Positions 8,900-22,570 of a stretch of DNA of 64,000 nt are shown piece after piece (position 1 is the first letter of the stretch; the number at the start of each line of letters is the position of its first letter). The position numbers were made by a program, and so were the translations under genes. The DNA lies in contig CAUYUJ010000161.1 in NCBI GenBank assembly GCA_963575745.1, positions 1 through 64,000 on the forward strand, given 5' to 3'. Source of the DNA: Prorocentrum cordatum. Taxonomy: Eukaryota. The notes beneath the pieces are model-generated. The model made no database searches. It worked only from the letters and a program-made list of their open reading frames with translations, and was not told the origin of the DNA.

Positions 8900-9689
8900 G
8901 TGGGTTTGTGTATATATATATATACATATGGGAGATCCCGGCCCCCGCGCCCCGGGCCGGAACCTCCCTTGTATATGCGTGGGTCCCTCCCCTGGCGGCG
9001 TCCCCAGGGGCTCCGAGACGGCCCCAAGAAGGCCGAGGAGGCCCCCAAGTGGTCCCAGAGGGCCCCGAGACGCCGAAAGATCGCTCCAAGACGCCCACGA
9101 TGATCCCAAGACGGCTTCAGTGGCCTCCAAAACGCGGCTAGCGGTCTCCAAGAGGCCTTCCCAAGAGGGTCCCAAGAGGCAAAACAGGCCCAACAATGTC
9201 AATACACAGCCCAAGAGCCTTCCAATATGTATGTATATATGTGTGTATATACATGGATGTGTAGGTTTATGTGCGTCTGTATGTATGTATGCATGCATGC
9301 ATGCATGCATGCATGTATGTATGTATATATATATATATATACGTGTGCATGTATGTATGTATGTATGTGTGTATGTATGTATGTACGTGTGTATGTATGT
9401 ATGCATGCCTGCATGCATGCATGTATGTATGTATGTACGTACGTACGTACGTACGTACGTATGTCGTATGTATGTTGTCTGTCTGTCTGTATGTATGTTT
9501 GTATGTATGCATGTATGTATGTATGTATGTATGTATGTATATGTGTAGGTATGTATGCATGTATGTATGTATGTGTGTATGTATGTATGTATGTATGCAT
9601 GCATGCATGCATGCATGTATGTATGCATGCATGCATGCATGCATGCATGCATGCATGTATGTATGTATGTATGTATGTATGTATGTATG

Positions 9690-9720
<31 letters not shown>

Positions 9721-10757
9721 GTATAGGGGAGGGGGTCCCGGGCCCCCCGAAGTGCACTGATTTGTCTTCTGGCCGTTTCGGGCCCGGCGGGGGGCGGCAA
9801 ACAACGTCAAAGGGGGCGAGAGACGTCCACGAGGGCGCATTGATGGCCCAAGAGCGCTCCAAGAGAGCCCAAGACCGCACAAGAGCGTTCCAAAATTGGT
9901 CCAACATGGCTTTGAAGACAGCCTAAGAGGGCTTCAAGATGGCCACGATGCCCTCAAGGGTTCCCACGAGGCACTCGGGAGGCGAACCAAGTAGGCTTCC
10001 TCAATGGTTTTTGACGGTTGTTCGTGTTCTCGTTGTTTCGTGCCTCCCACGGTCCAAGACAGCCCATGAGGCCCCAGAAACCAGCTCAAGACGGCCCAAG
10101 AGGCACCCAAAGAGGGCGCCACGACGGCGCAATAGAGAGCCCCAAGACGGCCCAACGAGTGCCCCAAGGCGGCCCCAGAGGCGCCCAAGATCGCCCCAAG
10201 AGGGCCCTAAGAGGGGCCCAAGAGGGGGAACACGAACCGACAATTCGAGCCTTCCGCCCCAGTAGGCCTCCAGGAGGCCCCCAAGAGGCCCCCAAGAGAG
10301 ACCAGGAGGCCCCCTAGAGGCCCCCTAGAGGCTCCACGAGGCCCCACAGGAGCCCCAAAAGACGCCCCACGAGCATCCGTAGCCATTTTGGCTCAAGGTG
10401 GCTCTGACTGCAGTGCGCAAGCGCTCATCATAGTTGCCCATCACCATGCAGACCCCGCGACCAGGCCCCTGGGGCCCGAGGCTGCCCACTTTTCCCAAAC
10501 TCCCCCCTCCCCCCGCGGTGCCCACTGTTTCCCTCGGGGTCCTTCGGGGGGCTTTCGGAGGGCCCGAAGGCGCTCCCCAGACGGTCCAGGAGGCGTCCGA
10601 GACGGTCCAAGAGTGCGCCAAGACGCCCAAGATGGCTTCAAGACGGCCCGAGAGGCCCCCCAAGCGCTTGAAGAGGGCTCCAAGAGGACACTTATGAGGG
10701 CCGCAAGGAACACACATCGCCCTGATTCCTCGTATGTTTGGCCTATGCGTTCCTATT

Positions 10758-10793
<36 letters not shown>

Positions 10794-11050
10794 TATGTGT
10801 GTGCTATGTATGTATGTATGTATGTATGTATGTATGTATGTATGTATGTATATATATATAGAAGTAAATAGCGTCCACGACGGCCTCAGAGAACCCCAAG
10901 AGCGCCGCAAGACATCCCAACAAGGCCTCCAAGACGGCCCAAGAAGCTCCCAGGATCGCCCCAAGACGTCCCACAGAGCCCTCCAAGACGACTTCCGTAG
11001 GCGCCTGTGGATCCCAGAGCGCTCTGAGACAGTCCAAGAGGCCCACAAGG
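8900..11050. repeat. (TATG)n/(TA)n microsatellites alternating with CCAAGA-rich dispersed-repeat segments
   Basis: Microsatellites at 9225-9722 and 10758-10860 are flanked by ccaagacggccc-rich sequence; the same family recurs at 22040-22570, 32930-33240 and, reversed, at 42440-42800. Confidence 0.85.
10376..10397 (+). ncRNA. Dinoflagellate spliced leader (DinoSL) 22-mer: an SL relic or the exon of an SL RNA gene
   Basis: TCCGTAGCCATTTTGGCTCAAG is an exact match to the conserved DCCGTAGCCATTTTGGCTCAAG and is followed by GT. Confidence 0.9.
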
Positions 11051-11259: not shown

Positions 11260-11530
11260 ACATAGCATCGCATAGCATCGCATAGCACAGCATAGACGAG
11301 CATCGCGTATCATAGCACAACATATCATTGCATAGCATGTCATCGCATCGCATCGCATCGCATATAATAGCATAGCATCGCATGGCACAGTACGGCGTAG
11401 CATAGCATAGCATCGCATTGCGCAGCATAGTATCGCATCGCATCAGACCGCATAATTTAGCATCGCATTGATAACATAGCGTAGAATTGTACAGCATGGC
11501 ATAGCACAGCACAGCACAGCATCGCATAGC
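11260..11530. repeat. (GCATA/GCATC)n pentanucleotide microsatellite
   Basis: Direct reading. Confidence 0.9.
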
Positions 11531-11550
11531 ACCAGACACGACGAGACACC

Positions 11551-12004
11551 GCGGGACACCGCGGGACACCCCAAGGCCACCGCCAGCCACCCCCGGTCCA
11601 CTGTTGGCCAACCGGGGGGCACAGCAAAATTTGGCCCAGTTTTGCCGTAAGCACAGATGGTTCTTTCCTCTCGCCTTCCGACGCAGCTTCGCCGCACCCA
11701 CACGCGCGACACGAACACGAAACCGAGAACGATTTCCTGGCGGGGGGCTCCTGTTCACTTCGATCTCTTTCCCAACTTCGGATTCTGTCACACCACGGGA
11801 CACCGCGGGACACCCCCGGGCAACCACTGGCCAACCGGGGGGCGCAGCAGAATTTTGTTCGGTTTTGCTTGAGCACGGCGGGATCATCCCCCTCGCCCGC
11901 CGAAGCAGCCTCGCCTCGCCCACACGCACGACACGAAACCGATAACTACTTCTTGGCGGGGGGTCTCTTGTTCACGTCGATCTCTTTCCCAACCTCGGAT
12001 TCTA
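11551..12004. repeat. Diverged tandem duplication (~220-240-bp unit x2)
   Basis: ggccaaccggggggc...cgatctctttcccaac.tcggattct occurs twice. Confidence 0.85.
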
Positions 12005-12422
12005 TCTGCTTGCTGCGGAGACAATCGTTTGTTTCGCTTCGCCTGGCCCCTCCTCCCCCCCCCTTCCTAGAGCCGCCGTCCCGGCTCAGGGGTTTTGGGC
12101 GCAGATCCCAGGGATCTGCGAACCCCTCCGTCGGACAGCGGCCATACGTGCTGGCCTGCCTCCAGCGAGGCGGCTGGCCGTGCCATCGCACCGCGCGCGC
12201 GGGCAACTGTGGCAGGCCCCGGGCCCTCCGCCACAGCGTGCCGCGCCTGCGACGCTCGTGGCAGGCCCCGGGCCCACCGCCACGACGCGCCGCGCAGCGC
12301 CACCAGAGCCAGCCTGGCACAGGCGAGAGAGGTCACGCAGAGCGAGTGACCGTGTCTTTGTCAGACTAGCTGCATCGTTTGCACGACTTCAACAGCATCA
12401 CAGCAGTCAGAGGGGGACCACA

Positions 12423-13927
12423 ATGACGACGGCCCCAAGAAAGTCTCGCCCATCGGTAGGCACTCAGAAGTTCTGGGAATGCAGCTCATGCCAGCGCCAG
12501 AACCTGTGGTCCTCGTCATCCTGCTGATTCTGCTCCGCCAGCCACCACAAGGATGAGGACCCCATCGAAGATCACGATGATGACAGCAGCGGATGGCAAG
12601 TGCAGCGCAGACGACGCAGCTCACGTCCGCGCTCAAGACCAGCGCCGTGGCAGGGCGCATGGAACCAGCAGCAGTGGCACAACTGGGACAATGGCGCCTC
12701 GCAGCAGAAGGACACGCCCACCAGAGCACGCAGCGCAGCGCCGACCCACGCGTTCGCGCAGGCACCTCCGCTGCCACGGCCAGCGGACCCAGAGCATGCA
12801 GAACAGCATCGTCTTTGGCTGCCACCACCAGCATCAAGCAAAGACCTCCGTGCCCATCGTGCCCAGCTCAAAGGGTCTCTTGGCGCCCTAGAGAAACAAA
12901 TTGCTTCAGCATACGAGCTAGGGCAAAGGGGGAGATCATCCGCTCCCTCGAGGACGACTACTCGGTGATCTTATACCAAGTCATGTTCGCCAGGGACGCC
13001 AAGTCACGCACCGAGCAGCAGCGTGCCTACCTGGACAGGGTCAGGAAAAGGCAGCAGGACTCCCAGAAGGACGTCGACAATCTCTCAGAGAAGTTGCGCC
13101 TGGCGAAGGCGCGCACGCAGGCCGTGACGGAGGACGTCACCAAGGCCGAGGAGCTGCTGGCACACTTCGCGTCCCTCGAGCGCCAGGAGCAGCAGGACCG
13201 AGACGCCGCAGCAGCGGGCATGGACGTGGACGGCACCTCCCAGAAGATAGACGGCGCAGCGCTTGGCCCAGCGCACGCATCCAGCAGTCCTCCAGTTGCG
13301 CAGCTCGCGGCACTACAGGCTACCAACGCCGACATGTCAGAGCAGCTCACCAAGCTGGCAGCCCAGATGGCAGTGCTGCAGAGCGCGCTGAGCGCCCAAC
13401 TGCAGCAGCAGCAGGCGAGCGCAGCCCCCAGCATCGCTGGGATCGCGGCACCAGCGCCGCAGACGCCAGCAGCAGCAGTCCAAGCACCAGTGACGGCAGG
13501 ACCTACACAGAAGGCGACAATGCTGGCAGGGGAGCCCGCCTCATGGCCTGCTCCGCCAGGAGCCCAGGCGGCACCCTCACCTGTTGAGGCAGCGCTCGCA
13601 GCAGCAAGCGGAGCAGCAGCCGCTAGCAGCCCAGAACCTGGAGGCAGGGCTCCCGCAGGTGCACCGAGCCGCCAGCGCAGAGCCACCCCGGCAGCAGGGC
13701 GTACTGCAGGACGCTCGGGCAGCCGCCCAGCCAATGGAGGCATCCTCAAGGTCGCGTTCGACAAGAGCGTCGCTAATGCCAAGCGCCTCACGGGGCCAGT
13801 GGAGCTCACCTCCGAAGACGACATGCACGAATCGGAAGCTGAGTCTCAGAGGGCCACAGCTGAGCCTGACGCCCCGTCGCAGACTGTCATAGCGACTCGG
13901 CCCGAGGAGGTCGATCGCGACCTTTGA
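12423..13927 (+). pseudogene. LINE ORF1: RanBP2-type zinc finger, coiled coil and Ala/Pro-rich tail, disrupted by one stop and one frameshift
   Basis: ATG 12423; WECSSCQRQNLWSSSSC*FC fits W-x-C-x2-C-x3-N-x6-C-x2-C with a TGA at 12525-12527. The frame continues as ORF 12600-12968, then shifts at the G-run near 12928-12932 into the coiled-coil part of ORF 12593-13927. Confidence 0.75.
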
Positions 13928-13976
13928 CGGTCACCACTGCCTGAGACGGAAATTCATGTGCCGTCGCAGGCAGCGG
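13925..13976 (+). promoter_or_regulatory. Candidate programmed stop-codon readthrough signal (UGA-CGG plus 3' stem-loop)
   Basis: A single in-frame TGA separates ORF1 and ORF2 and the next codon is CGG; after a 9-nt spacer, CTGCCTGAGACGG (13937-13949) pairs with CCGTCGCAGGCAG (13961-13973) at 12 of 13 positions. Confidence 0.65.
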
Positions 13977-16900
13977 ACAGCCTAGAGGATTGTCCAACGC
14001 CGCCTTTAGAAGCATCTCCAGAGCAGCAACTGTCGCAGCTAGGCCTCGCCACTAGCCCGATCCCTCCGTTGCCCCCTACTAAGGAGATCATTCTAAGGTG
14101 CTGGACCACGCCCCTGGGAACCGACATACTATCACATGCGCAGTTTTGGCACACTACTACAGTACAGGGTATGGTTACCTTATCCGAAGCTCCTCAGCCC
14201 ACTGAGGTCCCCACCAGTATCCAGATCTACACTGGCGGAACCGCTGGCGGTTTCAAGGACTGGCAAGGAAACGAATGCCCCCCTGCTTGGGCATTTGTTG
14301 CCATAGCATCAGACGGGGAGAGACAGTGGCTGCATGGATATCTCGCTCATCCCTTCTCGTCTGCCGCTCTCCTATACCCCGCTGCGCTACTTTCAGCTGC
14401 CGCGGAGTTTGAGGCTGCCATATGGGCTGCCGCCTGGGGCATACAGTATCCGTACTTGGAGCACACACATGTGACGATACACACCGACAACATGGAGGTG
14501 GTACGTGGGGCGTCTTTGGGGGCACTCAAAGGGCAGCTCTTGGGCCTCAAGGGTACCTTGGACGGTCTGGTGCAGGTCCTTACTAGGATCGCCAAAGGGT
14601 TCTCTTGGCAACACATTCCAGGACACCAGGGGACACCGTGGAATGAAATGGCGGACACGCTGGCGCGCCTGGCAGCCATGGGCATATATACTTCACAGCC
14701 CGACACGCAATGGAGAACGGAGCTGGACCTGCCATGGCATCAGCGCGCCTTGCAGTGGCTTTGGCTAGAGTTTGTCAGCCAAGAGCGGCGCAGTCAGTTT
14801 CCTCCTGCGCATGGCGTGCCAGTCTCTGCGCGCCAAGCACCGAATACCTCTATGACAGACTACGTCCCTGCATCAGAGCAGGCCGCCACACAGGTTGCCA
14901 ACAGCAAGCAGGCCCTCCTTTCCCCAAGCTTCTGGGTTGCTACGGCCAACGTGCTTACCTTACTCCCCAGCATGTGGAAGGGCCAACATAACCTCACTGG
15001 CCCTGGGCCCGGCAGGCTCATGCAATTGGCTTCCCACTTTGCCTCCCAACAATACCTTCTTGTGGGCGCCCTCGAGACCCGACTCCAAGTTCACAAGGCG
15101 CAGTCATTAGGAGACTACTACGTCATGCACTCCTCTGCCACACCACAGGGCTCCGACGGGTGCGCACTATGGGTACATACGGGGATTCCATACATGCCGG
15201 GTCACCATATCACAAGCAACATGTGCCGTGTGTTACATGCCGAGCCTGCGCGTCTGATAGTGGGCATCCGTGGTCCAGGCATATGCGTCAACGTTGTTGT
15301 CCTACATGCCCCCCATTCCCGCTCCCACTCTCCTACGCAGACACCGGAGGCCAAGGTATCACAATGGTGGGAGGTCACTACACAGCTTGTGACAGCCACA
15401 CGGCTGGGCGCAGAGCATCTCATCACGCTGGCGGATTCAAACGCAGCGCTTGGCAGCGTGACGTCAGCAGCAGTAGGTGAGATAGACAAGGGGGAGGAGA
15501 ATTTGGCAGGAGAGCATTTCCACAAGTTTCTGTTGGACACGGGCCACTGGGCCCCCTCTACCTTCCTCAAATCGCACTCGGGCATCTCGGGCTCTTGGAC
15601 CGCACCTTCGGGCAAAACCACGGCCAAACGACGGGACTATGTGTGTCTTTCGGACTCAGCGATTGCGCTACAACAGGGCGTTGACGGGGTTGTCGACCTC
15701 ACAGTAGCACAAGAGGACCACCAGGCGGTAGGCGCACTACTTCTCCTACCTCCCTCAGGCTGCTTCCAGAGGCGCGCCAAGCCGACTCGCATCCCTCGCG
15801 ACCCCGCTCGCCTTCGCGACCCCGAGGCACAAGCAGTCTTTAGGAGCCTGTTGCACGAGTGCCCTCTCCCAGAGTTCTCCATGCATAGCTCGGACCACAC
15901 GCAGCTCCTAGATCAGCACGTGCGAAGGTCTGTCAGCGAAGCTTTCCCTGAAAAGCAAACCACCCGTGGCACCAAACCACGACAGTGTTGGATCCAAACG
16001 GCCACGCTACAGGAGATTGACAGACGCGCCACTGCACTTCGGCAAGCACGACACGCACGACTCGCTTTGGCGCGCGCATCCCGTGCAGTACTCTTCTTCA
16101 CTTGGGCGCACCTTGCGCACTACGCACGCACATGCCGGACGTATGACGACCCACGGTACCTACGATATGCTACCATGCCGCCGATGCCCGACAGTGCGAT
16201 CACAGCCTGGGAGTGCAGCATCCGCTCGTACAATGCAGTCAGCAGCGAGTTTAGTCATGCCATGGCCAGGTCAGCAGAGTTACAACGGCAGGACCCATCC
16301 AAAAGACGACGGGCCAAGTGGATGCGCATAGCATTTTTTCCCTCTCCGCGTCTTTTCGCCCCGATGCAGCCAGATCACTACTGGCTCCACGCTCTCCCTA
16401 CTCCCGACCTCATTGCGTGCATATGGGATGCCATACGGGGGATGGAGGGATGTACGTCGGCAATGCGTGAACTATTCAAGCTGCACAACACCTTCATTGT
16501 TAAGCAGTGCTCACAGTCCGACGCCCAGGCGCACTATCGGGACCTAGCTACACAGCTCAAGTCAGAGTGGGACAAACCAGCCATGGACAAGGCGTTCGCC
16601 ACATTACGACGCATGGGCGCGGGGTCCAAGAAGAAACTCCTGGCCCAGGCCCTCCCCATCATCAAAGGGAAAAACGGGATCCCAGCAGCTACCCATCAGG
16701 AAGCAGCGAATGTATGGCTTGCACATTTTGGAAGGGAGGAGTGCTCTATTGTGATCCCTATACAGCACGCACAGGTCATCATCGACCTCCTCCCCCCCCT
16801 CCCTGCTCAGTCTTGCGCCGTCCAAGACGAGGACATCTTCCTGCCAGCGCTAGCTCAGTTTCAGACGGCGTGCAGAGGAGCGCGTCCCAGTGCAGCCAGC

Positions 16901-19900
16901 ATCGACGGCATCACGGGACGCTTGCTAGCGACTTTCGGGCCCGAACTTGCTGAAGTATACTTTCCCGTCGTCATGAAAGCAGTAGTAAGGCTCGAGGAAC
17001 CACAGCAATGGAAAGGAGGGTCGTATTGGAACATCTGGAAGCGCTCAGGAGACCCGTCTTGGCCCGCCCACTCCAGATCCGTCATGGTCTCCCCGCAGAT
17101 CGGCAAGAAGTTCCGCTCCCTCATACGCACCCCTCTCGCACATGCCCTTCCTAGCTACGCGGGGGACCAACAATTTGGTGGTGTCTCGGGACGTGGGGTG
17201 GATCTGGCAGGGCTCACCATTCGCACCTTTCAGAACCTAGCTGAGCTTTCCAACACCAGCATCATGTATCTATTCATCGATGTGGTGCAGGCATTTTACA
17301 AGTCGGTCAGACAGTTGGTCATGTGCTCAGGACATACTATTGACGACATCGCATGCATATTGAGGACCACGGGTCTCCCACCAGAGGCCATGCAGCGCCT
17401 CCTTGCACGGCTCAGTTCGAATGCAACTAGCTTGGAGACAGCTGGAGTCAGCCAACACCTACGGGCTCCGGTAGCCTCCTCCTACCACGGGTCCTGGTTC
17501 CACTACCCAGGGGCCTCTACAGTGGCGGTTTCCCTGCTCGGCACTGTTCCAGGACAACAACTCGGGGACGTCGTTTTCAATTTCGCTATGGCGGAATGCA
17601 TGGCCCTCACCAAAGAGCAACTCCAGCCTCTCCAACTAGCGCTGCAGGTTCCAACGATGTGTGGAGCATCACTCTCGCAGATGATGGCGCACGAGCCTGC
17701 GCCCACGCAGCAGGCCTTAGAGGTTGCCTTATTTGACGACGGAGCTTTCGCCGTCATCGGAGACCCCCTCGAGCTGCTACAGCTCGCTCCGCAGGTCGCA
17801 GGCATAGTGGCGAGCTCTTTTGCATCCCGAGGACTCACTCTCAATTTCAAGGCAGGAGAGACAGAGGTGCTGTACCAATTCCATGGCAAACATTCCAAAT
17901 CCGCCCGACTCCAGCTTTGGAAGCACATGCAGGGTACTTTCAGTTGGCACAACGACGTGGTAAGAGATATGCACATGCGCGCAGTACGTCAATACCCCCA
18001 TCTTGGGTCTATCTTGGACGAAAGGTGCGCGCTGGGTCCCGAGGTCGCCAAACGTATTGCTGGGGTGGCACAGTCCTCCAGAACACTCGTGCGCAAAGTA
18101 TTTCGGGCCCTACCTCAAGATGAAGACGCCGGTGCAGTGAAGATGAGGTTCATTGACTCACTTATTACCTCCTCCATGTTGTTTAATTCGGGGACCTGGT
18201 GCAACATCGAAACTGGAGCCTATGCTAAGCTACGCCATGCACTGCTGCGCAAGTACCGGGCTGCCAGCGGACTGTTCAGCTATGACGACACTGCTAGTAC
18301 CGACGCCGTTGTGCTGGCCACAGTCACTCGCTGCGATCTGAATGTGCAGTTGAGAGTACATAGGCTCAGACTTCTGGGTAGAGTTATCCACCATGGGTCC
18401 GACATCCTCCGAGGGCTGCTCGCGATGGCCTATCGAGCCGCTCAGGACAACCCCGGGGCGACCAAAACCTCCTGGCTTCACCGCGTTTTGGAGGACCTAG
18501 CTTGGATGCGCAAGGTATGCAAACAACTACACGACTACCCAGACCCTGTGGTAGATTTTGGTGCTTGGGAGAAGCTCGTTTTTCGATCGGCTCGTGCATG
18601 GAAGAGCCTCCTGCGCGAGGCACTGGCCAACGCTGCGCACGCAGACGCACAGTCAGCTTTAGCGGACAAAGCAGAAAAATACTTCTTTGCCATCACGATG
18701 CCTTGCGGCTTCCCGCTACCCATCACCCACCCCCACCACCCGCTGAGGCAGAACGACGGGAGGATCACGCAGCTTGAATGTCCCTGGTGTCAGGTTCACT
18801 TCCCGAGACCCAAGGCGTTGCGTCAGCACATCGTCCGCATGCACTTCAGTCTTGTTTCGCAGATCGAGCGCTTCCTCGGTGAGGGTACACAATGCATGGC
18901 GTGTGCTACAGATTTCGCATCACGACGACAGGTGCGAGACCATCTAGCATTCGACTCTGCCAGGTGCGCACTCTCTTACGGGTGCAGAGGGGCCACTCTT
19001 ACAGCGTCACAAGCTCAGCAAGCAGCACAGCACGACAGACAACTCTGTGAAGCCCGCCGTAAGGCGGGCCTGGGACGATGGAGGTCAGCATACCCAGCGA
19101 CGGTAGGCATCAATGGGATGATCTGGGAAGCCACTTGGGTTTTCTCACACCTAACGGCGGAGGAGGCTAGGAAGGTTCTCAGAGAAGCCCGGTATGAGTA
19201 CCCTCAGGAGGCCTTACCAGCTCTCCAACTAGCTTGGCAGGACGCCCCACCTCCCCACCCTGACGGCTCCGACCCCAACCCTATGCATTATGAAGACCGA
19301 TACTACATCTTCCGTCCCAACGACTTTACGGGCCTCGCCGTCACTCCGCTCCCATACCGTATTACGCGTGCGGAGGTCTTTATACTTAATCTATTTTGTG
19401 GGAGGCGACGACACGGCGACATACAATATCACATCGATGCCATGACACATGGAGTGGAGCTAACTATCACAGTGCTTTCCCTGGATATTGCTATACACCA
19501 TATGCTTGGGGACCTTACGCGTGCCTCCACCATCGCCGAGTGGACGGAGCACATCCGAAGCCACCGCGCATGGGTCACAGGCGGAGGACCGCCATGTGAG
19601 ACCTGGAGCGCAGCTCGCTGGAACCCTGACGGGCCCCCACCCCTACGCACTCACAGCCACATGTGGGGAGTGCCGTGGTGCGCACAGGCGCAGCGTGAAC
19701 AACTCAGAGTAGGCAACATGTTACTCTTCACCACAGCACAGCTCTTGGCCGAGCACGTACGTGCAGGCGCTAGCGGCTGGATGGAGCACCCGCCACCAGC
19801 GCCTTGGAGACCCGAGGCGCCCTCAAGCTTTCACTGGATGCCCCTCCGAGCGCTGGAAAGCTGCCCCCTGGTCAGCACCATCCAGTTCGACCAATGCACC

Positions 19901-20494
19901 CACAGAACAGAGGACCCACGACTACACGGCAAAGCTGCGACCAGGATCTTGGCGCTCCGACTACCGACCATGTATGGCCTCCTGAAGGCCAACAACAACG
20001 GCAGGTGCAATCACGGCCCCAATGCCCATGCAGTACTGCAGGGCAAACACGAGGACGGGACATTCAAAACGAGCAGCAAAAAGACGTACCCACCATCAAT
20101 GTGCAAGGCCATAGCACAGGCCATGCACGACAGCATCATGGACGCATATCACAATGGAATGGACGAGCCATCAGACATGCTACCACAGCCCACGCAGGAT
20201 CACAACGACTCCAGCATCCGACAATTCTTTGTACCGTGGTCCGACGAGGAGTGCTTCTGGGAGGCCCCGGACTACGCCGGCAAGAAGGGTACAAAACACA
20301 GAGTGAACCCTGAAGCTTGGCGTTGGGCTCCACCCAGGGAGACCAGCGAAGCCTCCGCCTCCTCCCCTTCCTCTGGCGCCTCCGCTGCCCCCCCCCGAGC
20401 CTCTGGAGCTTCTCCCGCCCGGGGCCCCCGAGGGCCGCCCGTCCCAGGCTGCCGCGGTCATCGAGGCGGCCGAAGCCGCCACGGACGTGAGTAG
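13958..20494 (+). CDS. LINE ORF2 polyprotein: RNase H - APE endonuclease - reverse transcriptase - 2x C2H2 zinc finger - C5 cytosine methyltransferase
   Basis: RNase H ~14215-14680 (IYTGG, AAEFEA, IHTDN, WQHIPGHQGTPWNEMADTLA). APE ~14930-15735 (TANV, LETR, LHAPHS, DSNA, RRDYV, EDH). RT ~16890-18015 (SIDG, QFGGVSGRG, FIDVVQAF, GTVPGQQLGDVVFN, LFDD, GLTLN, YPHLG). Zinc fingers ~18779-18950 (CPWC..H..H, CMAC..H). DNMT ~19375-20130 (LNLFCG, SLDI, GDL, GGPPCETWS, MEHP, FDQC, YPPSMC). The frame is open from 13928; the first ATG is at 14171. Confidence 0.93.
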   Translation: MPSQAADSLEDCPTPPLEASPEQQLSQLGLATSPIPPLPPTKEIILRCWTTPLGTDILSHAQFWHTTTVQGMVTLSEAPQPTEVPTSIQIYTGGTAGGFKDWQGNECPPAWAFVAIASDGERQWLHGYLAHPFSSAALLYPAALLSAAAEFEAAIWAAAWGIQYPYLEHTHVTIHTDNMEVVRGASLGALKGQLLGLKGTLDGLVQVLTRIAKGFSWQHIPGHQGTPWNEMADTLARLAAMGIYTSQPDTQWRTELDLPWHQRALQWLWLEFVSQERRSQFPPAHGVPVSARQAPNTSMTDYVPASEQAATQVANSKQALLSPSFWVATANVLTLLPSMWKGQHNLTGPGPGRLMQLASHFASQQYLLVGALETRLQVHKAQSLGDYYVMHSSATPQGSDGCALWVHTGIPYMPGHHITSNMCRVLHAEPARLIVGIRGPGICVNVVVLHAPHSRSHSPTQTPEAKVSQWWEVTTQLVTATRLGAEHLITLADSNAALGSVTSAAVGEIDKGEENLAGEHFHKFLLDTGHWAPSTFLKSHSGISGSWTAPSGKTTAKRRDYVCLSDSAIALQQGVDGVVDLTVAQEDHQAVGALLLLPPSGCFQRRAKPTRIPRDPARLRDPEAQAVFRSLLHECPLPEFSMHSSDHTQLLDQHVRRSVSEAFPEKQTTRGTKPRQCWIQTATLQEIDRRATALRQARHARLALARASRAVLFFTWAHLAHYARTCRTYDDPRYLRYATMPPMPDSAITAWECSIRSYNAVSSEFSHAMARSAELQRQDPSKRRRAKWMRIAFFPSPRLFAPMQPDHYWLHALPTPDLIACIWDAIRGMEGCTSAMRELFKLHNTFIVKQCSQSDAQAHYRDLATQLKSEWDKPAMDKAFATLRRMGAGSKKKLLAQALPIIKGKNGIPAATHQEAANVWLAHFGREECSIVIPIQHAQVIIDLLPPLPAQSCAVQDEDIFLPALAQFQTACRGARPSAASIDGITGRLLATFGPELAEVYFPVVMKAVVRLEEPQQWKGGSYWNIWKRSGDPSWPAHSRSVMVSPQIGKKFRSLIRTPLAHALPSYAGDQQFGGVSGRGVDLAGLTIRTFQNLAELSNTSIMYLFIDVVQAFYKSVRQLVMCSGHTIDDIACILRTTGLPPEAMQRLLARLSSNATSLETAGVSQHLRAPVASSYHGSWFHYPGASTVAVSLLGTVPGQQLGDVVFNFAMAECMALTKEQLQPLQLALQVPTMCGASLSQMMAHEPAPTQQALEVALFDDGAFAVIGDPLELLQLAPQVAGIVASSFASRGLTLNFKAGETEVLYQFHGKHSKSARLQLWKHMQGTFSWHNDVVRDMHMRAVRQYPHLGSILDERCALGPEVAKRIAGVAQSSRTLVRKVFRALPQDEDAGAVKMRFIDSLITSSMLFNSGTWCNIETGAYAKLRHALLRKYRAASGLFSYDDTASTDAVVLATVTRCDLNVQLRVHRLRLLGRVIHHGSDILRGLLAMAYRAAQDNPGATKTSWLHRVLEDLAWMRKVCKQLHDYPDPVVDFGAWEKLVFRSARAWKSLLREALANAAHADAQSALADKAEKYFFAITMPCGFPLPITHPHHPLRQNDGRITQLECPWCQVHFPRPKALRQHIVRMHFSLVSQIERFLGEGTQCMACATDFASRRQVRDHLAFDSARCALSYGCRGATLTASQAQQAAQHDRQLCEARRKAGLGRWRSAYPATVGINGMIWEATWVFSHLTAEEARKVLREARYEYPQEALPALQLAWQDAPPPHPDGSDPNPMHYEDRYYIFRPNDFTGLAVTPLPYRITRAEVFILNLFCGRRRHGDIQYHIDAMTHGVELTITVLSLDIAIHHMLGDLTRASTIAEWTEHIRSHRAWVTGGGPPCETWSAARWNPDGPPPLRTHSHMWGVPWCAQAQREQLRVGNMLLFTTAQLLAEHVRAGASGWMEHPPPAPWRPEAPSSFHWMPLRALESCPLVSTIQFDQCTHRTEDPRLHGKAATRILALRLPTMYGLLKANNNGRCNHGPNAHAVLQGKHEDGTFKTSSKKTYPPSMCKAIAQAMHDSIMDAYHNGMDEPSDMLPQPTQDHNDSSIRQFFVPWSDEECFWEAPDYAGKKGTKHRVNPEAWRWAPPRETSEASASSPSSGASAAPPRASGASPARGPRGPPVPGCRGHRGGRSRHGRE

Positions 20495-21614
20495 CCGGCC
20501 AGCGGCAGCCGCCAGCTCAGACGCCCTAGCTGCCCCTCCTCCGCCCCCCCCCCAGCTCACTGCAGAGCAGTCGGAGAGAATTCGTCGCAACAGAGAGGCC
20601 GCCAGGGAGATCAAGCGCAGACGGCGCGCTCCCTGGAATTTCTCTGCCATCTTGTGGCCAGAGTAGCCTCGCACTCTGGGGGCCCATGTGTGGCCCCAGA
20701 GCCTATGCAAAGTCATGGCACGCCCACGCGCGTCGAGACACACAGAGCACGACCCAGCGTCCCAGCCTGCGTCTTACCTACCCCCTTCCTAGGGCTCGAG
20801 GACGGCCCAACAGGACCCCAAAAACGGCCCCAGAGGTTCGGGAGTCCGCCCAAGAGGGCCCCAAGAAATCCCAACGGGATTTCAAGAGAGGGCCAACAGA
20901 GTCCGCTGGGCCGTCTTTGGACGGGCTTGGGGAGTCTTGCGGCCGTTTTGAGGCGGTCTCTGGCTCAGGGCGCCGTGGAGCCGTGGAGCAAAGCGCAGAG
21001 GGCGCGATTTTGTGGACGCGCGCGGCGGGGGGGCGTCGCTCCCAGAGAACAGCAGAAACATTTCCCGAAAGCCAACGAGCGCTCTCATATGGCCCCAACG
21101 TGCCTGCGACAGGGTGGCGGAGTTTCATTGTTGGCGTTCGAATGTTCAGAAAGGGAATTGGTCGGCGCCTCAGTATGTGTGCCTTTCGCGCCAAGGCGCG
21201 TCAGGCTGCAATGCTGGCTTGCAGGTGGCGTCCGCCTGCGGTCAGCCCAGTGAATTTGATGCTTTGCTTTATAAGAGCGGGTCGCTCCACCTTGCGCGCA
21301 CATCCTTGGGCAATCGGCCAGATAAGCGCGCGCGAGGTTGTTGCGTCTCTGGCGCGAGACCCCGCCAGTGCAGCTTCTTTCTCTTCACCGCGGAGGCGAT
21401 CGTTTATTTCATTTCGCCTTGCGTGCGCACCCGTGGGCAATCGACCAGATAAATGCGCGCCAGGTTGATGCGTCTCCGTCGGAAAATATAAATGTCATGT
21501 CCTGTTGTTCACTCTTTTCGCTCCAGGGGCAGCGAGGAGTTTCGCTACGCTTTGCGTGCGCACCCTTGGATTATTTACCAGGCGAGTATGCCCCAAGCGG
21601 TGCGTCTCTACCAG

Positions 21615-22570
21615 TATGTATGCATGCATGCATGTATGTAGGTATGTATGTGTGTATGTATGTATGTATGTATGAAAGTATGTATGTACGTATGTATGTA
21701 TGTATGTATGTCAGTCTGTATGTATGTATGTTCGTATGTATGCATGCATGCATGCATGCATGTATGTACGTGTGTACGTATGCATGTATGTATATATGTA
21801 TGTATATGTGTAGGTATGTATGTGTGTATGTCTGTATGTACGTATGTACGTATGTACGTATGTACGTATGGACGTGTGTACGTATGTATGTATGCACGTA
21901 TGCACGTATGCACGTATGTACGTATGTATGTATGTATGTATGTATGCATATATGTATGTATACACATATATATGTGTGTATAATGTGCATATATATGTAT
22001 ACATATATACATAAACACACACATATATACACATATAGGCCACCGGAGTTCCAGGTCCTGGGGGGGGCCGGCCTCATTTCTCTACGGCGGGACCGGGGCT
22101 CCAGGACCCCCCGTTCCTGGTCCAAAACGGCCTCGATGGCCTCCAAGACGGCCAAGATGACCCTTGATGGCTGCAGAAATGCTTGCAATAACGCTAAGAT
22201 GGCCTCAAGAGAGCCCTCGATGGCTCCAAGAGGTACCCTGCACGGTCCAATACGGGGACCGGATAAGTCCAAATAGCCTCCGAGGCGGCCAAGACGCCTC
22301 CAAGACATCCGTTGGGAAATCCCGAAAAAGCTAAATGAATATATTTCCGGTTGGTTTTTGAATAGTTTTGCATTTGTTTTTTTTCGGCCTGCTGACGGTC
22401 CAGATGGCGCACGAGGCCCCCAAGATCGCTCCCAGAGCACCCAAGAGGCCTCCACGATAGCCCCGTGACGGCCCAAGAAGTACCAAAAATGGCCCCAGGA
22501 GGGCCCCAAGACGGCTCAAGAGGACTCAACACGCCTGAGATTGCCTCCAAGACAGGCACGAAGCGCTCCA
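21615..22570. repeat. (TATG)n microsatellite followed by the CCAAGA-rich dispersed repeat
   Basis: Same organisation as 9225-10370. Confidence 0.85.

What the first reader, a model, noticed from the sequence alone, without database searches (positions are those of the whole stretch)
13925..13976. Virus-style stop-codon readthrough signal joining LINE ORF1 to ORF2
Seen: ORF1 (frame of 12593) and ORF2 (frame of 13958) share a frame and are separated only by TGA 13925-13927. The next codon is CGG. Nine nt downstream, a stem forms between 13937-13949 and 13961-13973 (12/13 pairs, 11-nt loop, two more C-G pairs beyond a mismatch). ORF2 has no ATG until 14171. Established: UGA-CGG and UGA-CUA contexts followed ~8-10 nt later by a stem-loop drive programmed readthrough in alphaviruses and tobra/furo-type plant viruses, whereas LINE ORF2 is usually made by termination-reinitiation. 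Inference: this element makes a gag-pol-like ORF1-ORF2 fusion (~2750 aa from 12423 to 20666 once repaired) at low stoichiometry. I am not aware of this being described for dinoflagellate LINEs.
Basis: partly seen in the sequence, partly recalled or inferred. Interest (0 to 1): 0.88.

Follow-up and report, generated by a model that had tools for sequence, protein, structure and literature searches.

The report
Stop-plus-hairpin junction in a dinoflagellate LINE
A jumping gene in a dinoflagellate genome has its two coding parts in one reading frame, split by a single stop codon followed by an unusually strong RNA hairpin; viruses use this layout to let some ribosomes read on, but here it could be read in only one damaged copy.

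Summary
TGA 13925-27 is the only stop between a 447-codon frame and a 2188-codon frame. CGG follows it, and a 12/13-bp hairpin (13937-49/13961-73) starts 9 nt later.

The hairpin is not background. It is the most stable of 2612 in-frame 44-nt windows in the coding region. CGG is 18 of 2521 codons.

The element is a full-length LINE (12071-20780) with a 12-nt target duplication and an empty site in other runs. Its layout is RanBP2-like finger/coiled-coil ORF1, then RNase H-APE-RT-C2H2-DNMT-like ORF2.

Conservation, the decisive test, could not be run because no close copy is in any searchable collection.

- Contigs of other runs show this copy carries three private ORF-breaking changes.
- Those contigs have ATG, not ATT, at 13952-54, eight codons after the TGA.
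- A second junction form lacks or replaces 13901-13998.
- One distant relative (L003) repeats in-frame TGA-C plus a hairpin, but a control weakens that.

Odds: readthrough about 0.42; termination-reinitiation at AUG 13952 about 0.25; chance nonsense mutation about 0.2.

The parts
12059..12070 (.). Left target-site duplication, CCCCCTTCCTAG
   Evidence: The same 12-mer occurs at 20781-92. Empty-site contigs join 12057/8 to 20781 with 12 (X1) or 5 (X3) shared letters.
12071..20780 (+). Full-length LINE body, 8710 bp, no poly(A) tail
   Evidence: Bounded by the duplication and by the empty-site joint that skips 8722-8723 bases in X1 and X3. RT profile matches R2 and LINE-1 ORF2p.
12071..12422 (+). 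5' UTR, G+C-rich and strongly folding
   Evidence: Most of the most stable 66-nt windows of the element lie at 12074-12242.
12423..12927 (+). ORF1, first part (frame of 12423). Holds a RanBP2-like finger W-x-C-x2-C-x3-N-x6-C-x2-C at 12474-12533.
   Evidence: Translation. Codon usage prefers this frame. X1 contigs join it to the next part by an extra G after 12927. The finger consensus is recalled; Pfam gave no hit.
12525..12527 (+). Private TGA inside the finger motif (AGA in X1 contigs)
   Evidence: 12525 T>A at 23.6 of 23.6 depth in X1; codon change worked out.
12929..13924 (+). ORF1, second part: coiled-coil-like stretch, then an Ala/Pro-rich basic tail and an acidic end
   Evidence: Translation. 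Codon usage prefers this frame. No Pfam family and no homologue found.
13925..13930 (+). In-frame TGA followed by CGG
   Evidence: CGG is 18 of 2521 codons.
13934..13976 (+). Hairpin: 16-nt arms (core 13 bp, 12 paired) and an 11-nt loop
   Evidence: It is the only inverted repeat in 13780-14080.
13952..13954 (+). ATT here, ATG in the contigs of X1 and X2. In frame, 8 codons after the TGA, in the hairpin loop.
   Evidence: 13954 T>G at 25.1 of 25.1 (X1) and 4.19 of 4.19 (X2); codon worked out.
13928..20494 (+). ORF2, 2188 codons without a stop. In X1 contigs one C fewer at 20388 carries it on to 20666.
14225..14665 (+). RNase H domain
   Evidence: Pfam RNase_H E 2.5e-5, just under the cut-off. 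Profile vs PDB gives RNase HI at 7.5e-6. Motif places.
14939..15730 (+). AP-endonuclease-like domain
   Evidence: Pfam Exo_endo_phos E 0.0052, below the cut-off. Weak exodeoxyribonuclease match. Conserved motifs in 2052 relatives.
17273..17749 (+). Reverse-transcriptase core (F-x-D...A-F to F-D-D)
   Evidence: Profile A3 vs PDB: R2 at 8.1e-13, LINE-1 ORF2p at 2.2e-9. Motif places. Pfam RVT_1 not hit.
18779..18916 (+). Two C2H2 zinc fingers
19364..20152 (+). C-terminal domain with a C5 cytosine-methyltransferase-like fold (invariant P-P-C-E-T and E-H-P)
   Evidence: AlphaFold model: pLDDT 72.5, pTM 0.74. All 50 listed VIA rows are C5-DNMTs: Z 7.5-9.6, about 190 residues, rmsd about 4 A. Foldseek best E 2.2e-3. 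No sequence-level hit.
20781..20792 (.). Right target-site duplication, CCCCCTTCCTAG

Best explanation
The stop-plus-hairpin is a programmed leaky stop inside a LINE whose ancestors encoded one polyprotein.

Shown:
- The element is a full-length, recently inserted non-LTR retrotransposon of a dinoflagellate.
- Its gag-like N-terminal part and its RNase H-APE-RT-zinc finger-DNMT-like part share one frame.
- They are split by a single UGA, followed by CGG and the strongest compact hairpin of the coding region. The hairpin sits where a ribosome with UGA in its A site would meet it.

Inferred:
- Most ribosomes stop and make free ORF1 protein.
- A minority decode UGA with a near-cognate tRNA, helped by the +4 C / CGG context and the hairpin at the mRNA entry channel.
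- These ribosomes make an ORF1-ORF2 fusion of about 2750 residues, which sets a gag : gag-pol-like ratio.

The window's copy is itself damaged, so the signal is read from a dead or dying copy of the family.
For: - In-frame layout with a single stop and a 2188-codon open frame after it.
- UGA-CGG, with CGG being 18 of 2521 codons.
- The hairpin ranks 1 of 2612 in-frame 44-nt windows. Only 3 such stems exist in 8.6 kb. Shuffle z = -3.14.
- The stem starts at +13. The review table lists +12 for the UGA-CGG signals of VEEV and CTFV, and +9/+13 for CHIKV (PMC13517186, passages).
- Codon usage says the 81 codons after the TGA are coding in that frame. Homology to relatives starts at query residues 310-324, that is 10-24 residues after the TGA.
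- In relatives the RNase H-APE part lies inside one long frame. In 24 of 46 loci, 900 or more uninterrupted codons precede it. Many database proteins carry it at residue 600-2100. A fusion product is therefore the ancestral form.
- The table shown for X1 and X2 lists no difference in the TGA, the CGG or either stem arm, only the loop change at 13954. This is weak: 568 rows were hidden, and by my reading of the contig layout the X1 contig may begin at 13921.
- L003 repeats the layout. By the C-terminal domain it is 33% identical, second of 19 after L034 at 34%. It has an upstream frame preferred by codon usage, TGA-C, a hairpin from +11 ranking 0.6-0.7%, then a 2125-codon frame whose first Met is codon 186.
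Against: - The site could be read in this one copy only. No conservation or covariation test was possible.
- The copy differs from X1 contigs by three ORF-breaking changes (12525, 12927, 20388), so a fourth lesion is not far-fetched. CGA, one CpG transition from TGA, is a common codon here (31 of 2521).
- X1 and X2 contigs have an in-frame ATG at 13952-54. That gives ORF2 a start of its own.
- A junction form skipping or replacing 13901-13998 holds depth 16.3 against 25.1 in X1 and also occurs in X4. If it is a plain 98-nt deletion, the two frames differ there.
- The hairpin (about 43 nt) is far smaller than the 68-177-nt structures listed for the viral signals.
- In the control, 2 of 40 unrelated stops upstream of relatives' big ORFs had equally ranked hairpins. 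This lowers the weight of L003.
- The other 10 loci with in-frame stops show none at the fixed offset (ranks 0.084-0.92).
- Tca2 gag-UGA-pol with a 3' pseudoknot gave no readthrough in reporters (PMC2194720, abstract).
- The shown window-versus-X1 differences are 12 synonymous to 20 non-synonymous, which is little sign of selection on this copy.
Confidence: 0.42

Rival explanations
1. Two separate proteins made by termination-reinitiation. Ribosomes stop at UGA 13925. The hairpin holds or positions the 40S subunit, and translation restarts at AUG 13952-54, which is present in other copies and mutated to AUU here. No fusion protein is made. Sharing a frame is an inheritance from a single-ORF ancestor or a 1-in-3 accident.
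For: - ATG at 13952-54 in every X1 and X2 contig covering it (25.1 of 25.1; 4.19 of 4.19).
- It lies 25 nt after the stop and inside the hairpin loop.
- Detectable homology of ORF2 to relatives begins right there, at query residue 310 against ATG at 309.
- Among LINEs, stop-start coupling that needs a structure downstream of the site is described for SART1, and termination-reinitiation for human L1 (PMC5972666, passages).
Against: - The CGG context, a 0.7% codon, plays no part in this model.
- An AUG buried in the loop of a -25 kcal/mol hairpin is a poor start for scanning.
- One Met codon within about 10 codons is not rare by chance.
- Only two runs show it.
- L003 has no in-frame ATG for 186 codons after its TGA.
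Confidence: 0.25
2. Chance. The family encodes one polyprotein. TGA 13925 is a nonsense mutation (for example CGA to TGA at a methylated CpG) in a decaying copy or small sub-lineage. The hairpin and CGG happen to lie beside it.
For: - This copy has three other ORF-breaking differences from X1 contigs.
- 9 of 46 relatives' loci carry an in-frame stop with 200 or more open codons before it, as decayed single-ORF copies would.
- Single giant ORFs are the rule in the clade.
- CGA is frequent (31 of 2521).
- T is only 12% of the ORF1 strand, so open frames are cheap here.
- 2 of 40 control sites had comparable hairpins.
Against: - It needs three coincidences at once. The stop falls within a few codons of the strongest hairpin of 2612 positions. 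It is followed by a 0.7% codon that is one of the two classical type-II contexts. It sits at the boundary where homology to relatives' RNase H part begins.
- All three other private lesions appear as differences in the X1 table, while no difference at 13925-27 is listed (weak, since rows are hidden).
Confidence: 0.2
3. Another use of UGA or of the hairpin: selenocysteine insertion with an adjacent recoding hairpin, an intron that removes the stop, or a hairpin that serves packaging or ORF1p binding while ORF2 is made from a separate RNA or internal entry.
For: A hairpin next to UGA also occurs at some selenoprotein UGA codons (recalled). Tca2 shows that a junction can hide a promoter (PMC2194720, abstract).
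Against: - No SECIS or any other Rfam family at E <= 1 in 11900-21000, apart from a sub-threshold miRNA-like hit on the hairpin's minus strand.
- The skipped stretch of the variant junction ends in CC..AC, not in intron-like ends.
- The host reads TGA as stop: there is none in 2188 codons of ORF2.
Confidence: 0.08

Closest known systems
Type II viral readthrough signals (UGA-CGG or UGA-CUA plus a 3' stem-loop: alphaviruses such as VEEV, coltivirus CTFV; tobra/furo-type plant viruses by recollection)
   Same: UGA, then CGG. The downstream frame is open and encodes the polymerase part. The stem starts at +13 against +12 for VEEV and CTFV (PMC13517186, passages).
   Different: This is a cellular retrotransposon, not an RNA virus. 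The structure is a simple hairpin of about 43 nt, against 68-177-nt extended or forked stem-loops. There is no conservation data and no measured readthrough.
Gag-stop-pol readthrough of gammaretroviruses (MoMLV UAG plus pseudoknot) and gag-UGA-pol of the Candida retrotransposon Tca2
   Same: A structural or RNA-binding protein and the RT polyprotein share one frame split by one stop, with RNA structure just downstream. The expected outcome is a low fusion : gag ratio.
   Different: Those are LTR elements with a pseudoknot. The Tca2 junction did not drive readthrough in reporters (PMC2194720, abstract). No pseudoknot was found or sought beyond a 6-nt loop complement.
LINE ORF2 translation by termination-reinitiation (SART1 UAAUG coupling with a downstream structure; human L1)
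   Same: It is a LINE with ORF1 and ORF2 on one RNA. There is a structure just downstream of the ORF1 stop. Other copies have an AUG 25 nt after the stop.
   Different: Stop and start do not overlap. The two ORFs share a frame. This window copy has no AUG for 82 codons.
Symbiodinium LINEs with DNMT (SymbioLINE-Dnmt, de Mendoza et al. 2018, PMC5890265)
   Same: A dinoflagellate LINE with target-site duplications, no poly(A) tail, and a cytosine-methyltransferase-like domain (passages).
   Different: There the DNMT lies in an ORF upstream of the RT ORF and is found by Pfam. Here the DNMT-like domain is at the C-terminal end of the RT frame, escapes Pfam and PDB sequence searches, and ORF1 is a finger/coiled-coil protein.
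Arabidopsis ATLN-type LINEs with orf1 and orf2 in frame across an amber codon (recalled from memory; not found in the paper library)
   Same: A LINE in which suppression of a single in-frame stop was proposed to give an ORF1-ORF2 product.
   Different: Plant L1 clade, UAG rather than UGA-CGG. The claim could not be checked here.

Membership tests
Type II programmed readthrough signal (UGA-CGG/CUA + 3' stem-loop) | UGA stop followed by CGG or CUA | tested here: met
   TGA 13925-27, CGG 13928-30. CGG is 18 of 2521 codons.
Type II programmed readthrough signal (UGA-CGG/CUA + 3' stem-loop) | Downstream frame open and coding, same frame as upstream ORF | tested here: met
   2188 codons without a stop. 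Codon usage prefers this frame on both sides of the stop.
Type II programmed readthrough signal (UGA-CGG/CUA + 3' stem-loop) | Stable RNA structure starting about 8-12 nt after the stop | tested here: met
   9-nt spacer, 12/13-bp stem, -25.1 kcal/mol for 44 nt, rank 1 of 2612. Smaller than the viral examples.
Type II programmed readthrough signal (UGA-CGG/CUA + 3' stem-loop) | Stop, context and structure conserved among functional relatives, with compensatory changes | tested here: inconclusive
   No close copy was retrievable. The X1/X2 table lists only a loop change, but most rows are hidden. A variant junction exists. L003 is a distant partial replicate, and the control gave 2 of 40.
Type II programmed readthrough signal (UGA-CGG/CUA + 3' stem-loop) | Measured readthrough product | not testable with these tools
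   Needs a reporter assay, ribosome profiling or proteomics.
Non-LTR retrotransposon (LINE) | Reverse transcriptase of the LINE type | tested here: met
   Profile of this ORF2 with 6 relatives vs PDB: R2 at 8.1e-13, LINE-1 ORF2p at 2.2e-9. Pfam RVT_1 itself not hit.
Non-LTR retrotransposon (LINE) | AP-type endonuclease | tested here: inconclusive
   Exo_endo_phos E 0.0052, 17 bits against a cut-off of 24.5. Exodeoxyribonuclease 8.3e-4.
Non-LTR retrotransposon (LINE) | Insertion flanked by a target-site duplication, with an empty site elsewhere | tested here: met
   12-nt duplication. Contigs of X1 and X3 join 12057/8 to 20781.
SymbioLINE-Dnmt (PMC5890265) | DNMT encoded in an ORF upstream of the RT ORF | tested here: not met
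   ORF1 has no Pfam family. The DNMT-like fold lies after RT and the zinc fingers in the same frame.
SymbioLINE-Dnmt (PMC5890265) | Target-site duplications, no poly(A) tail | tested here: met
   The element ends ...GCGTCTTACCTA.
Termination-reinitiation coupling (SART1 / L1 type) | Start codon at or close to the ORF1 stop | tested here: inconclusive
   The window has none for 82 codons. X1 and X2 contigs have ATG 25 nt after the stop.
RanBP2-type zinc finger (ORF1 N-terminus) | W-x-C-x2-4-C-x3-N-x6-C-x2-C (consensus recalled) | tested here: inconclusive
   The spacing fits at 12474-12533, with the private TGA as one x. Pfam gave no hit at E <= 1.
C5 cytosine DNA methyltransferase (C-terminal domain) | DNMT fold with a Pro-Cys catalytic motif | tested here: inconclusive
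   All 50 listed VIA rows are C5-DNMTs, but Z is only 7.5-9.6 and Foldseek best E is 2.2e-3. P-P-C-E-T is invariant in 20 sequences. No sequence-level match. E-H-P stands where I recall E-N-V.

The most novel reading that the evidence does not exclude
A clade of dinoflagellate LINEs that ancestrally made one giant polyprotein has, at least once and perhaps twice (this family and L003), turned it into a gag / gag-pol system. It did so by placing a virus-type leaky stop (UGA-C, here the full UGA-CGG, plus a hairpin at +11 to +13) at the boundary before the RNase H domain. That would be a convergent reinvention of the alphavirus/retrovirus readthrough module inside a non-LTR retrotransposon. It would also be the first programmed readthrough signal described in a dinoflagellate.
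Probability: 0.35. Interest if true: 0.75.

Novelty: new variant of a known kind. Interest (0 to 1): 0.56.

Why it matters
How LINEs make the right small amount of ORF2 protein is settled for very few elements, and in those the answer is reinitiation. A LINE that uses a compact, virus-like UGA-CGG-hairpin module would show three things.

- The same recoding solution arises independently in cellular retroelements.
- It would give a 50-nt element that can be tested directly in reporters.
- It would open translational recoding in dinoflagellates. My search found 9 papers holding 'dinoflagellate' and 'stop codon readthrough'. Judged by title and abstract start alone, none concerns a LINE.

There is a practical point too. 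Gene callers will split or mis-splice such elements, so counts of 'intact' dinoflagellate LINEs may be biased.

The side finding matters for the link between retrotransposons and cytosine methylation in these genomes. A DNMT-like domain that Pfam misses sits at the end of the RT frame, and its motif was found in 27 of 53 related loci.

Tried and rejected
- Whole genome: none is held for this window.
- Other copies in the window: none by blastn or tblastn.
- The search for homologous proteins: ORF1 at near lengths, and the 300-residue junction query (TGA as X) at near and shorter lengths, gave no hit. The 'longer' class was not searched with that tool.
- The search of protein representatives: 2052 relatives, but no best stretch among the 150 listed starts before query residue 310, so ORF1 has no detectable relatives.
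- Close relatives by peptide patterns: none in metagenome contigs, genome contigs or viral contigs.
- ORF1 pieces against the 53 distant loci: only 5 spurious rows of 18 residues or fewer, E 0.05-0.96.
- The protein-atlas search was unreachable twice.
- The search of earlier findings: nothing by place, sequence or words.
- Sequencing runs: no RNA holder listed, so expression was not examined.
- Its table hides 568 of 608 difference rows and does not give the letters between 13900 and 13999 in the variant junction. The state of 13925-27 in X1/X2 and the content of that variant therefore stay unknown.
- Direct repeats that could explain the 98-nt variant: none.
- Variant genetic code (UGA as sense, as in an Amoebophrya strain, PMC6394959, listing only): rejected, since ORF2 has no TGA in 2188 codons.
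- SECIS or any Rfam family: none.
- Paper searches for a described LINE readthrough found no such paper. The Arabidopsis ATLN case is therefore quoted from memory only.
- Supplements of PMC5890265, which may show the SymbioLINE junctions, were not opened.
Full report
**What is in the sequence**

- A stop-to-stop frame 12584..13927 (447 codons) and a frame 13928..20494 (2188 codons) are the same frame. Only TGA 13925-27 separates them.
- The next codon is CGG.
- Arms 13937-49 and 13961-73 pair at 12 of 13 positions around an 11-nt loop. Two further C-G pairs (13934-35 with 13975-76) lie beyond a mismatch.
- The first Met codon after the stop is residue 82, at 14171.
- The 66 nt from the stop fold to -27.9 kcal/mol, z = -3.14, with none of 200 shuffles as stable.

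**Is it more than chance?**

- Only three stems of 12 or more of 13 pairs exist in the 8.6-kb element. So 26 of 8629 triplet positions have one starting 5-12 nt downstream.
- I took the 44 nt beginning 9 nt after each in-frame codon of 12593-20494. The window after this TGA is the most stable of 2612 (-25.1 kcal/mol). With 66-nt windows, 50 of 2612 are as stable.
- CGG is 18 of 2521 codons of the frame.
- The hairpin is the only inverted repeat in 13780-14080.

The single in-frame stop therefore sits at the classical distance from the strongest compact hairpin of the coding region, and a rare codon that is one of the two classical contexts follows it.

**What the element is**

- The 12-mer CCCCCTTCCTAG occurs at 12059-70 and 20781-92.
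- Contigs of two public runs join 12057/8 directly to 20781, skipping 8722-8723 bases. They share 12 (X1) or 5 (X3) letters at the joint.
- So 12071-20780 is one insertion of 8710 bp with a target-site duplication, no poly(A) tail, and an empty site elsewhere.
- A profile of ORF2 with six relatives matches R2 (8.1e-13), LINE-1 ORF2p (2.2e-9), RNase HI (7.5e-6), C2H2 fingers and, weakly, an exonuclease III-type nuclease.
- Pfam alone sees only a near-threshold RNase_H, weak C2H2 and a sub-threshold Exo_endo_phos.
- The domain order is RNase H, AP-endonuclease-like, RT, two C2H2 fingers, then a conserved C-terminal domain.
- The host is a dinoflagellate. A perfect copy of the 21-nt spliced-leader motif (recalled) followed by GT lies at 10377-97, with 0 of 100 shuffles matching.

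**ORF1**

Contigs of run X1, about 99% like the window, differ at three ORF-relevant places.

- They have A at 12525 (23.6 of 23.6 depth).
- They have an extra G after 12927 (23.6 of 23.6).
- They have one C fewer at 20388 (25.5 of 35.2).

- The first 37 codons fit the RanBP2 finger spacing (recalled consensus). The window's private TGA at 12525 falls inside it. Pfam does not report the finger.
- A coiled-coil-like stretch, an Ala/Pro-rich basic tail and an acidic end follow.
- Codon usage trained on the ORF2 core prefers the frame of 12423 up to 12926. It prefers the frame of the TGA for 12929-13924 and for 13928-14170.
- ORF1 has no detectable relative in three word-indexed searches, in a full HMMER scan, or in the 53 fetched loci.

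**The wider clade**

- The HMMER scan found 2052 relatives at E <= 0.001. All listed matches begin at query residue 310 or later, where the TGA is residue 300.
- In many of these proteins the RNase H part lies at residue 600-2100.
- Of 53 metagenome loci (22-41% identity) I analysed 46. I left out 7 with short contigs or very short matches: L023, L035, L036, L038, L043, L047, L048.
- In 24 of the 46, 900 or more uninterrupted codons precede the match in the same frame.
- 9 of the 46 have an in-frame stop with 200 or more open codons before it, as decayed copies of single-ORF elements would.

One long polyprotein is therefore the usual and probably ancestral layout. The TGA here lies at the boundary where homology to that polyprotein starts.

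**What other copies say about the junction (one call allowed, contigs only)**

- (a) All contigs covering 13954 read G (X1 25.1 of 25.1; X2 4.19 of 4.19). This changes ATT to ATG at 13952-54, in frame, eight codons after the stop and in the loop. So 'no ATG until 14171' is private to the window copy.
- (b) The table lists no difference in the TGA, the CGG or the stem arms. But only 40 of 608 rows are shown. From contig ends and depths I infer that the X1 contig may start at 13921. Presence of TGA in X1/X2 is therefore likely but not shown.
- (c) A contig in X1 (depth 16.3) and one in X4 join 13900 to 13999. Whether other letters lie between is not reported. The window-like path has depth 25.1, and both run into a contig of depth 40.8 that starts at 13999. 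A second junction form therefore exists. A plain 98-nt deletion would put the two ORFs in different frames.
- (d) Of the 32 shown coding differences, 12 are synonymous and 20 are not. This is little evidence of selection on this copy.

**A partial replicate and its control**

- L003 is 33% identical in the C-terminal domain, second of the 19 loci aligned after L034 at 34%.
- It has 200 open codons up to the contig edge in the frame that codon usage prefers. Then comes TGA-CAG, then a hairpin from +11 (-17.4 kcal/mol, rank 0.6-0.7% of in-frame windows). A 2125-codon frame follows, whose first Met is codon 186.
- The other 10 loci with in-frame stops show no such hairpin at the fixed offset (ranks 0.084-0.92). 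L042 reaches 0.011 only as the best of 13 offsets.
- As a control I ranked the stop before the big ORF in 41 loci. Three rank 0.007 or lower: L003, and also L018 and L031, which lie in T-rich, stop-filled 5' regions.
- The background for such a hairpin near the start of the big ORF is thus about 2 in 40. L003 is suggestive, not proof.

**Mechanism**

The geometry is that of a recoding signal. With UGA in the A site, a stem starting at +13 stands at the mRNA entry channel. The review table lists UGA-CGG with stem-loops from +12 for VEEV and CTFV (PMC13517186, passages).

- I rate programmed readthrough, giving free ORF1 protein plus a minor ORF1-ORF2 fusion, as the best single explanation, at 0.42.
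- The main rival, at 0.25, is termination at UGA and restart at AUG 13952 helped by the hairpin. A downstream structure is needed for stop-start coupling in the LINE SART1, and human L1 uses termination-reinitiation (PMC5972666, passages).
- The two are not exclusive.
- A chance nonsense mutation, at 0.2, fits the damaged state of this copy and the frequent decayed relatives. But it needs three independent coincidences.
- Selenocysteine, splicing or a variant code are unlikely.
- Tca2 is a warning. Its gag-UGA-pol junction with a pseudoknot did not drive readthrough in reporters (PMC2194720, abstract).

**Comparison and novelty**

- It works like a type II viral readthrough signal but is much smaller. 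It is not a member of any viral family.
- It is a LINE. It is not the published SymbioLINE-Dnmt layout, where the DNMT lies in an ORF upstream of the RT ORF (PMC5890265, passages).
- A readthrough proposal for plant ATLN LINEs is known to me from memory only.
- I found no paper on readthrough in dinoflagellate LINEs.
- I file it as a new variant of a known kind. It is interesting and directly testable, but it rests on one damaged copy.

**Side finding**

- The C-terminal domain (19364-20152) has invariant P-P-C-E-T and E-H-P in 20 aligned sequences.
- The P-P-C-[EDQ]-T motif with enough open frame around it occurs in 27 of the 53 loci.
- The model has pLDDT 72.5 and pTM 0.74.
- All 50 listed second-look matches are C5 cytosine methyltransferases: Z 7.5-9.6, about 190 residues, rmsd about 4 A. 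The best Foldseek E-value is only 2.2e-3.
- Sequence methods see nothing.

Noticed in passing
window 19364-20152; L002-L051 (27 loci, coordinates): The C-terminal end of the RT frame holds a domain with a C5 cytosine-methyltransferase-like fold (Z 7.5-9.6 to DNMT3A/B, M.HhaI, DNMT1, DNMT5). P-P-C-E-T and E-H-P are invariant. Pfam and PDB sequence searches miss it. It lies downstream of RT, unlike the published SymbioLINE-Dnmt layout.
   Followed up: partly
It is either an SL RNA gene or a relic leader of a retroposed transcript, 1.7 kb upstream of the LINE.
   Followed up: partly
window 13901-13998: Contigs of runs X1 (depth 16.3) and X4 join 13900 to 13999, so a second form of the ORF1/ORF2 junction exists. 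Whether it is a 98-nt deletion or a replacement is not known. The skipped ends are CC..AC, not intron-like.
   Followed up: partly
window 9226-9724, 10758-10866, 21614-22009: Related tandem repeats (73-92% alike) lie on both sides of the LINE, outside its target duplication. Depth in the runs is very high at 11500-11833 (4867 in X1). The element sits in satellite-like DNA.
   Followed up: no
window 12209-12236 and 12259-12286: The 5' UTR holds two similar G+C-rich units (GTGGCAGGCCCCGGGCCC.CCGCCAC), each self-complementary. Together they give the most stable folds of the whole element.
   Followed up: no
protein P0062 (relative), residues about 225-300: One relative carries, upstream of its RNase H-APE part, a stretch that looks by eye like a 2-oxoglutarate/Fe(II) dioxygenase motif (HRD...GGEL). 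It may be relevant to base modification in dinoflagellates. Not tested.
   Followed up: no
proteins P0008, P0014, P0016, P0055, P0104: Several relatives have 600-700 N-terminal residues of Ser/Thr/Cys/Arg-rich low-complexity sequence in frame with the RNase H part. They share a start (M.LR.W..CA...LLW). It is unclear whether this is real protein or an open alternative frame of T-poor DNA.
   Followed up: no
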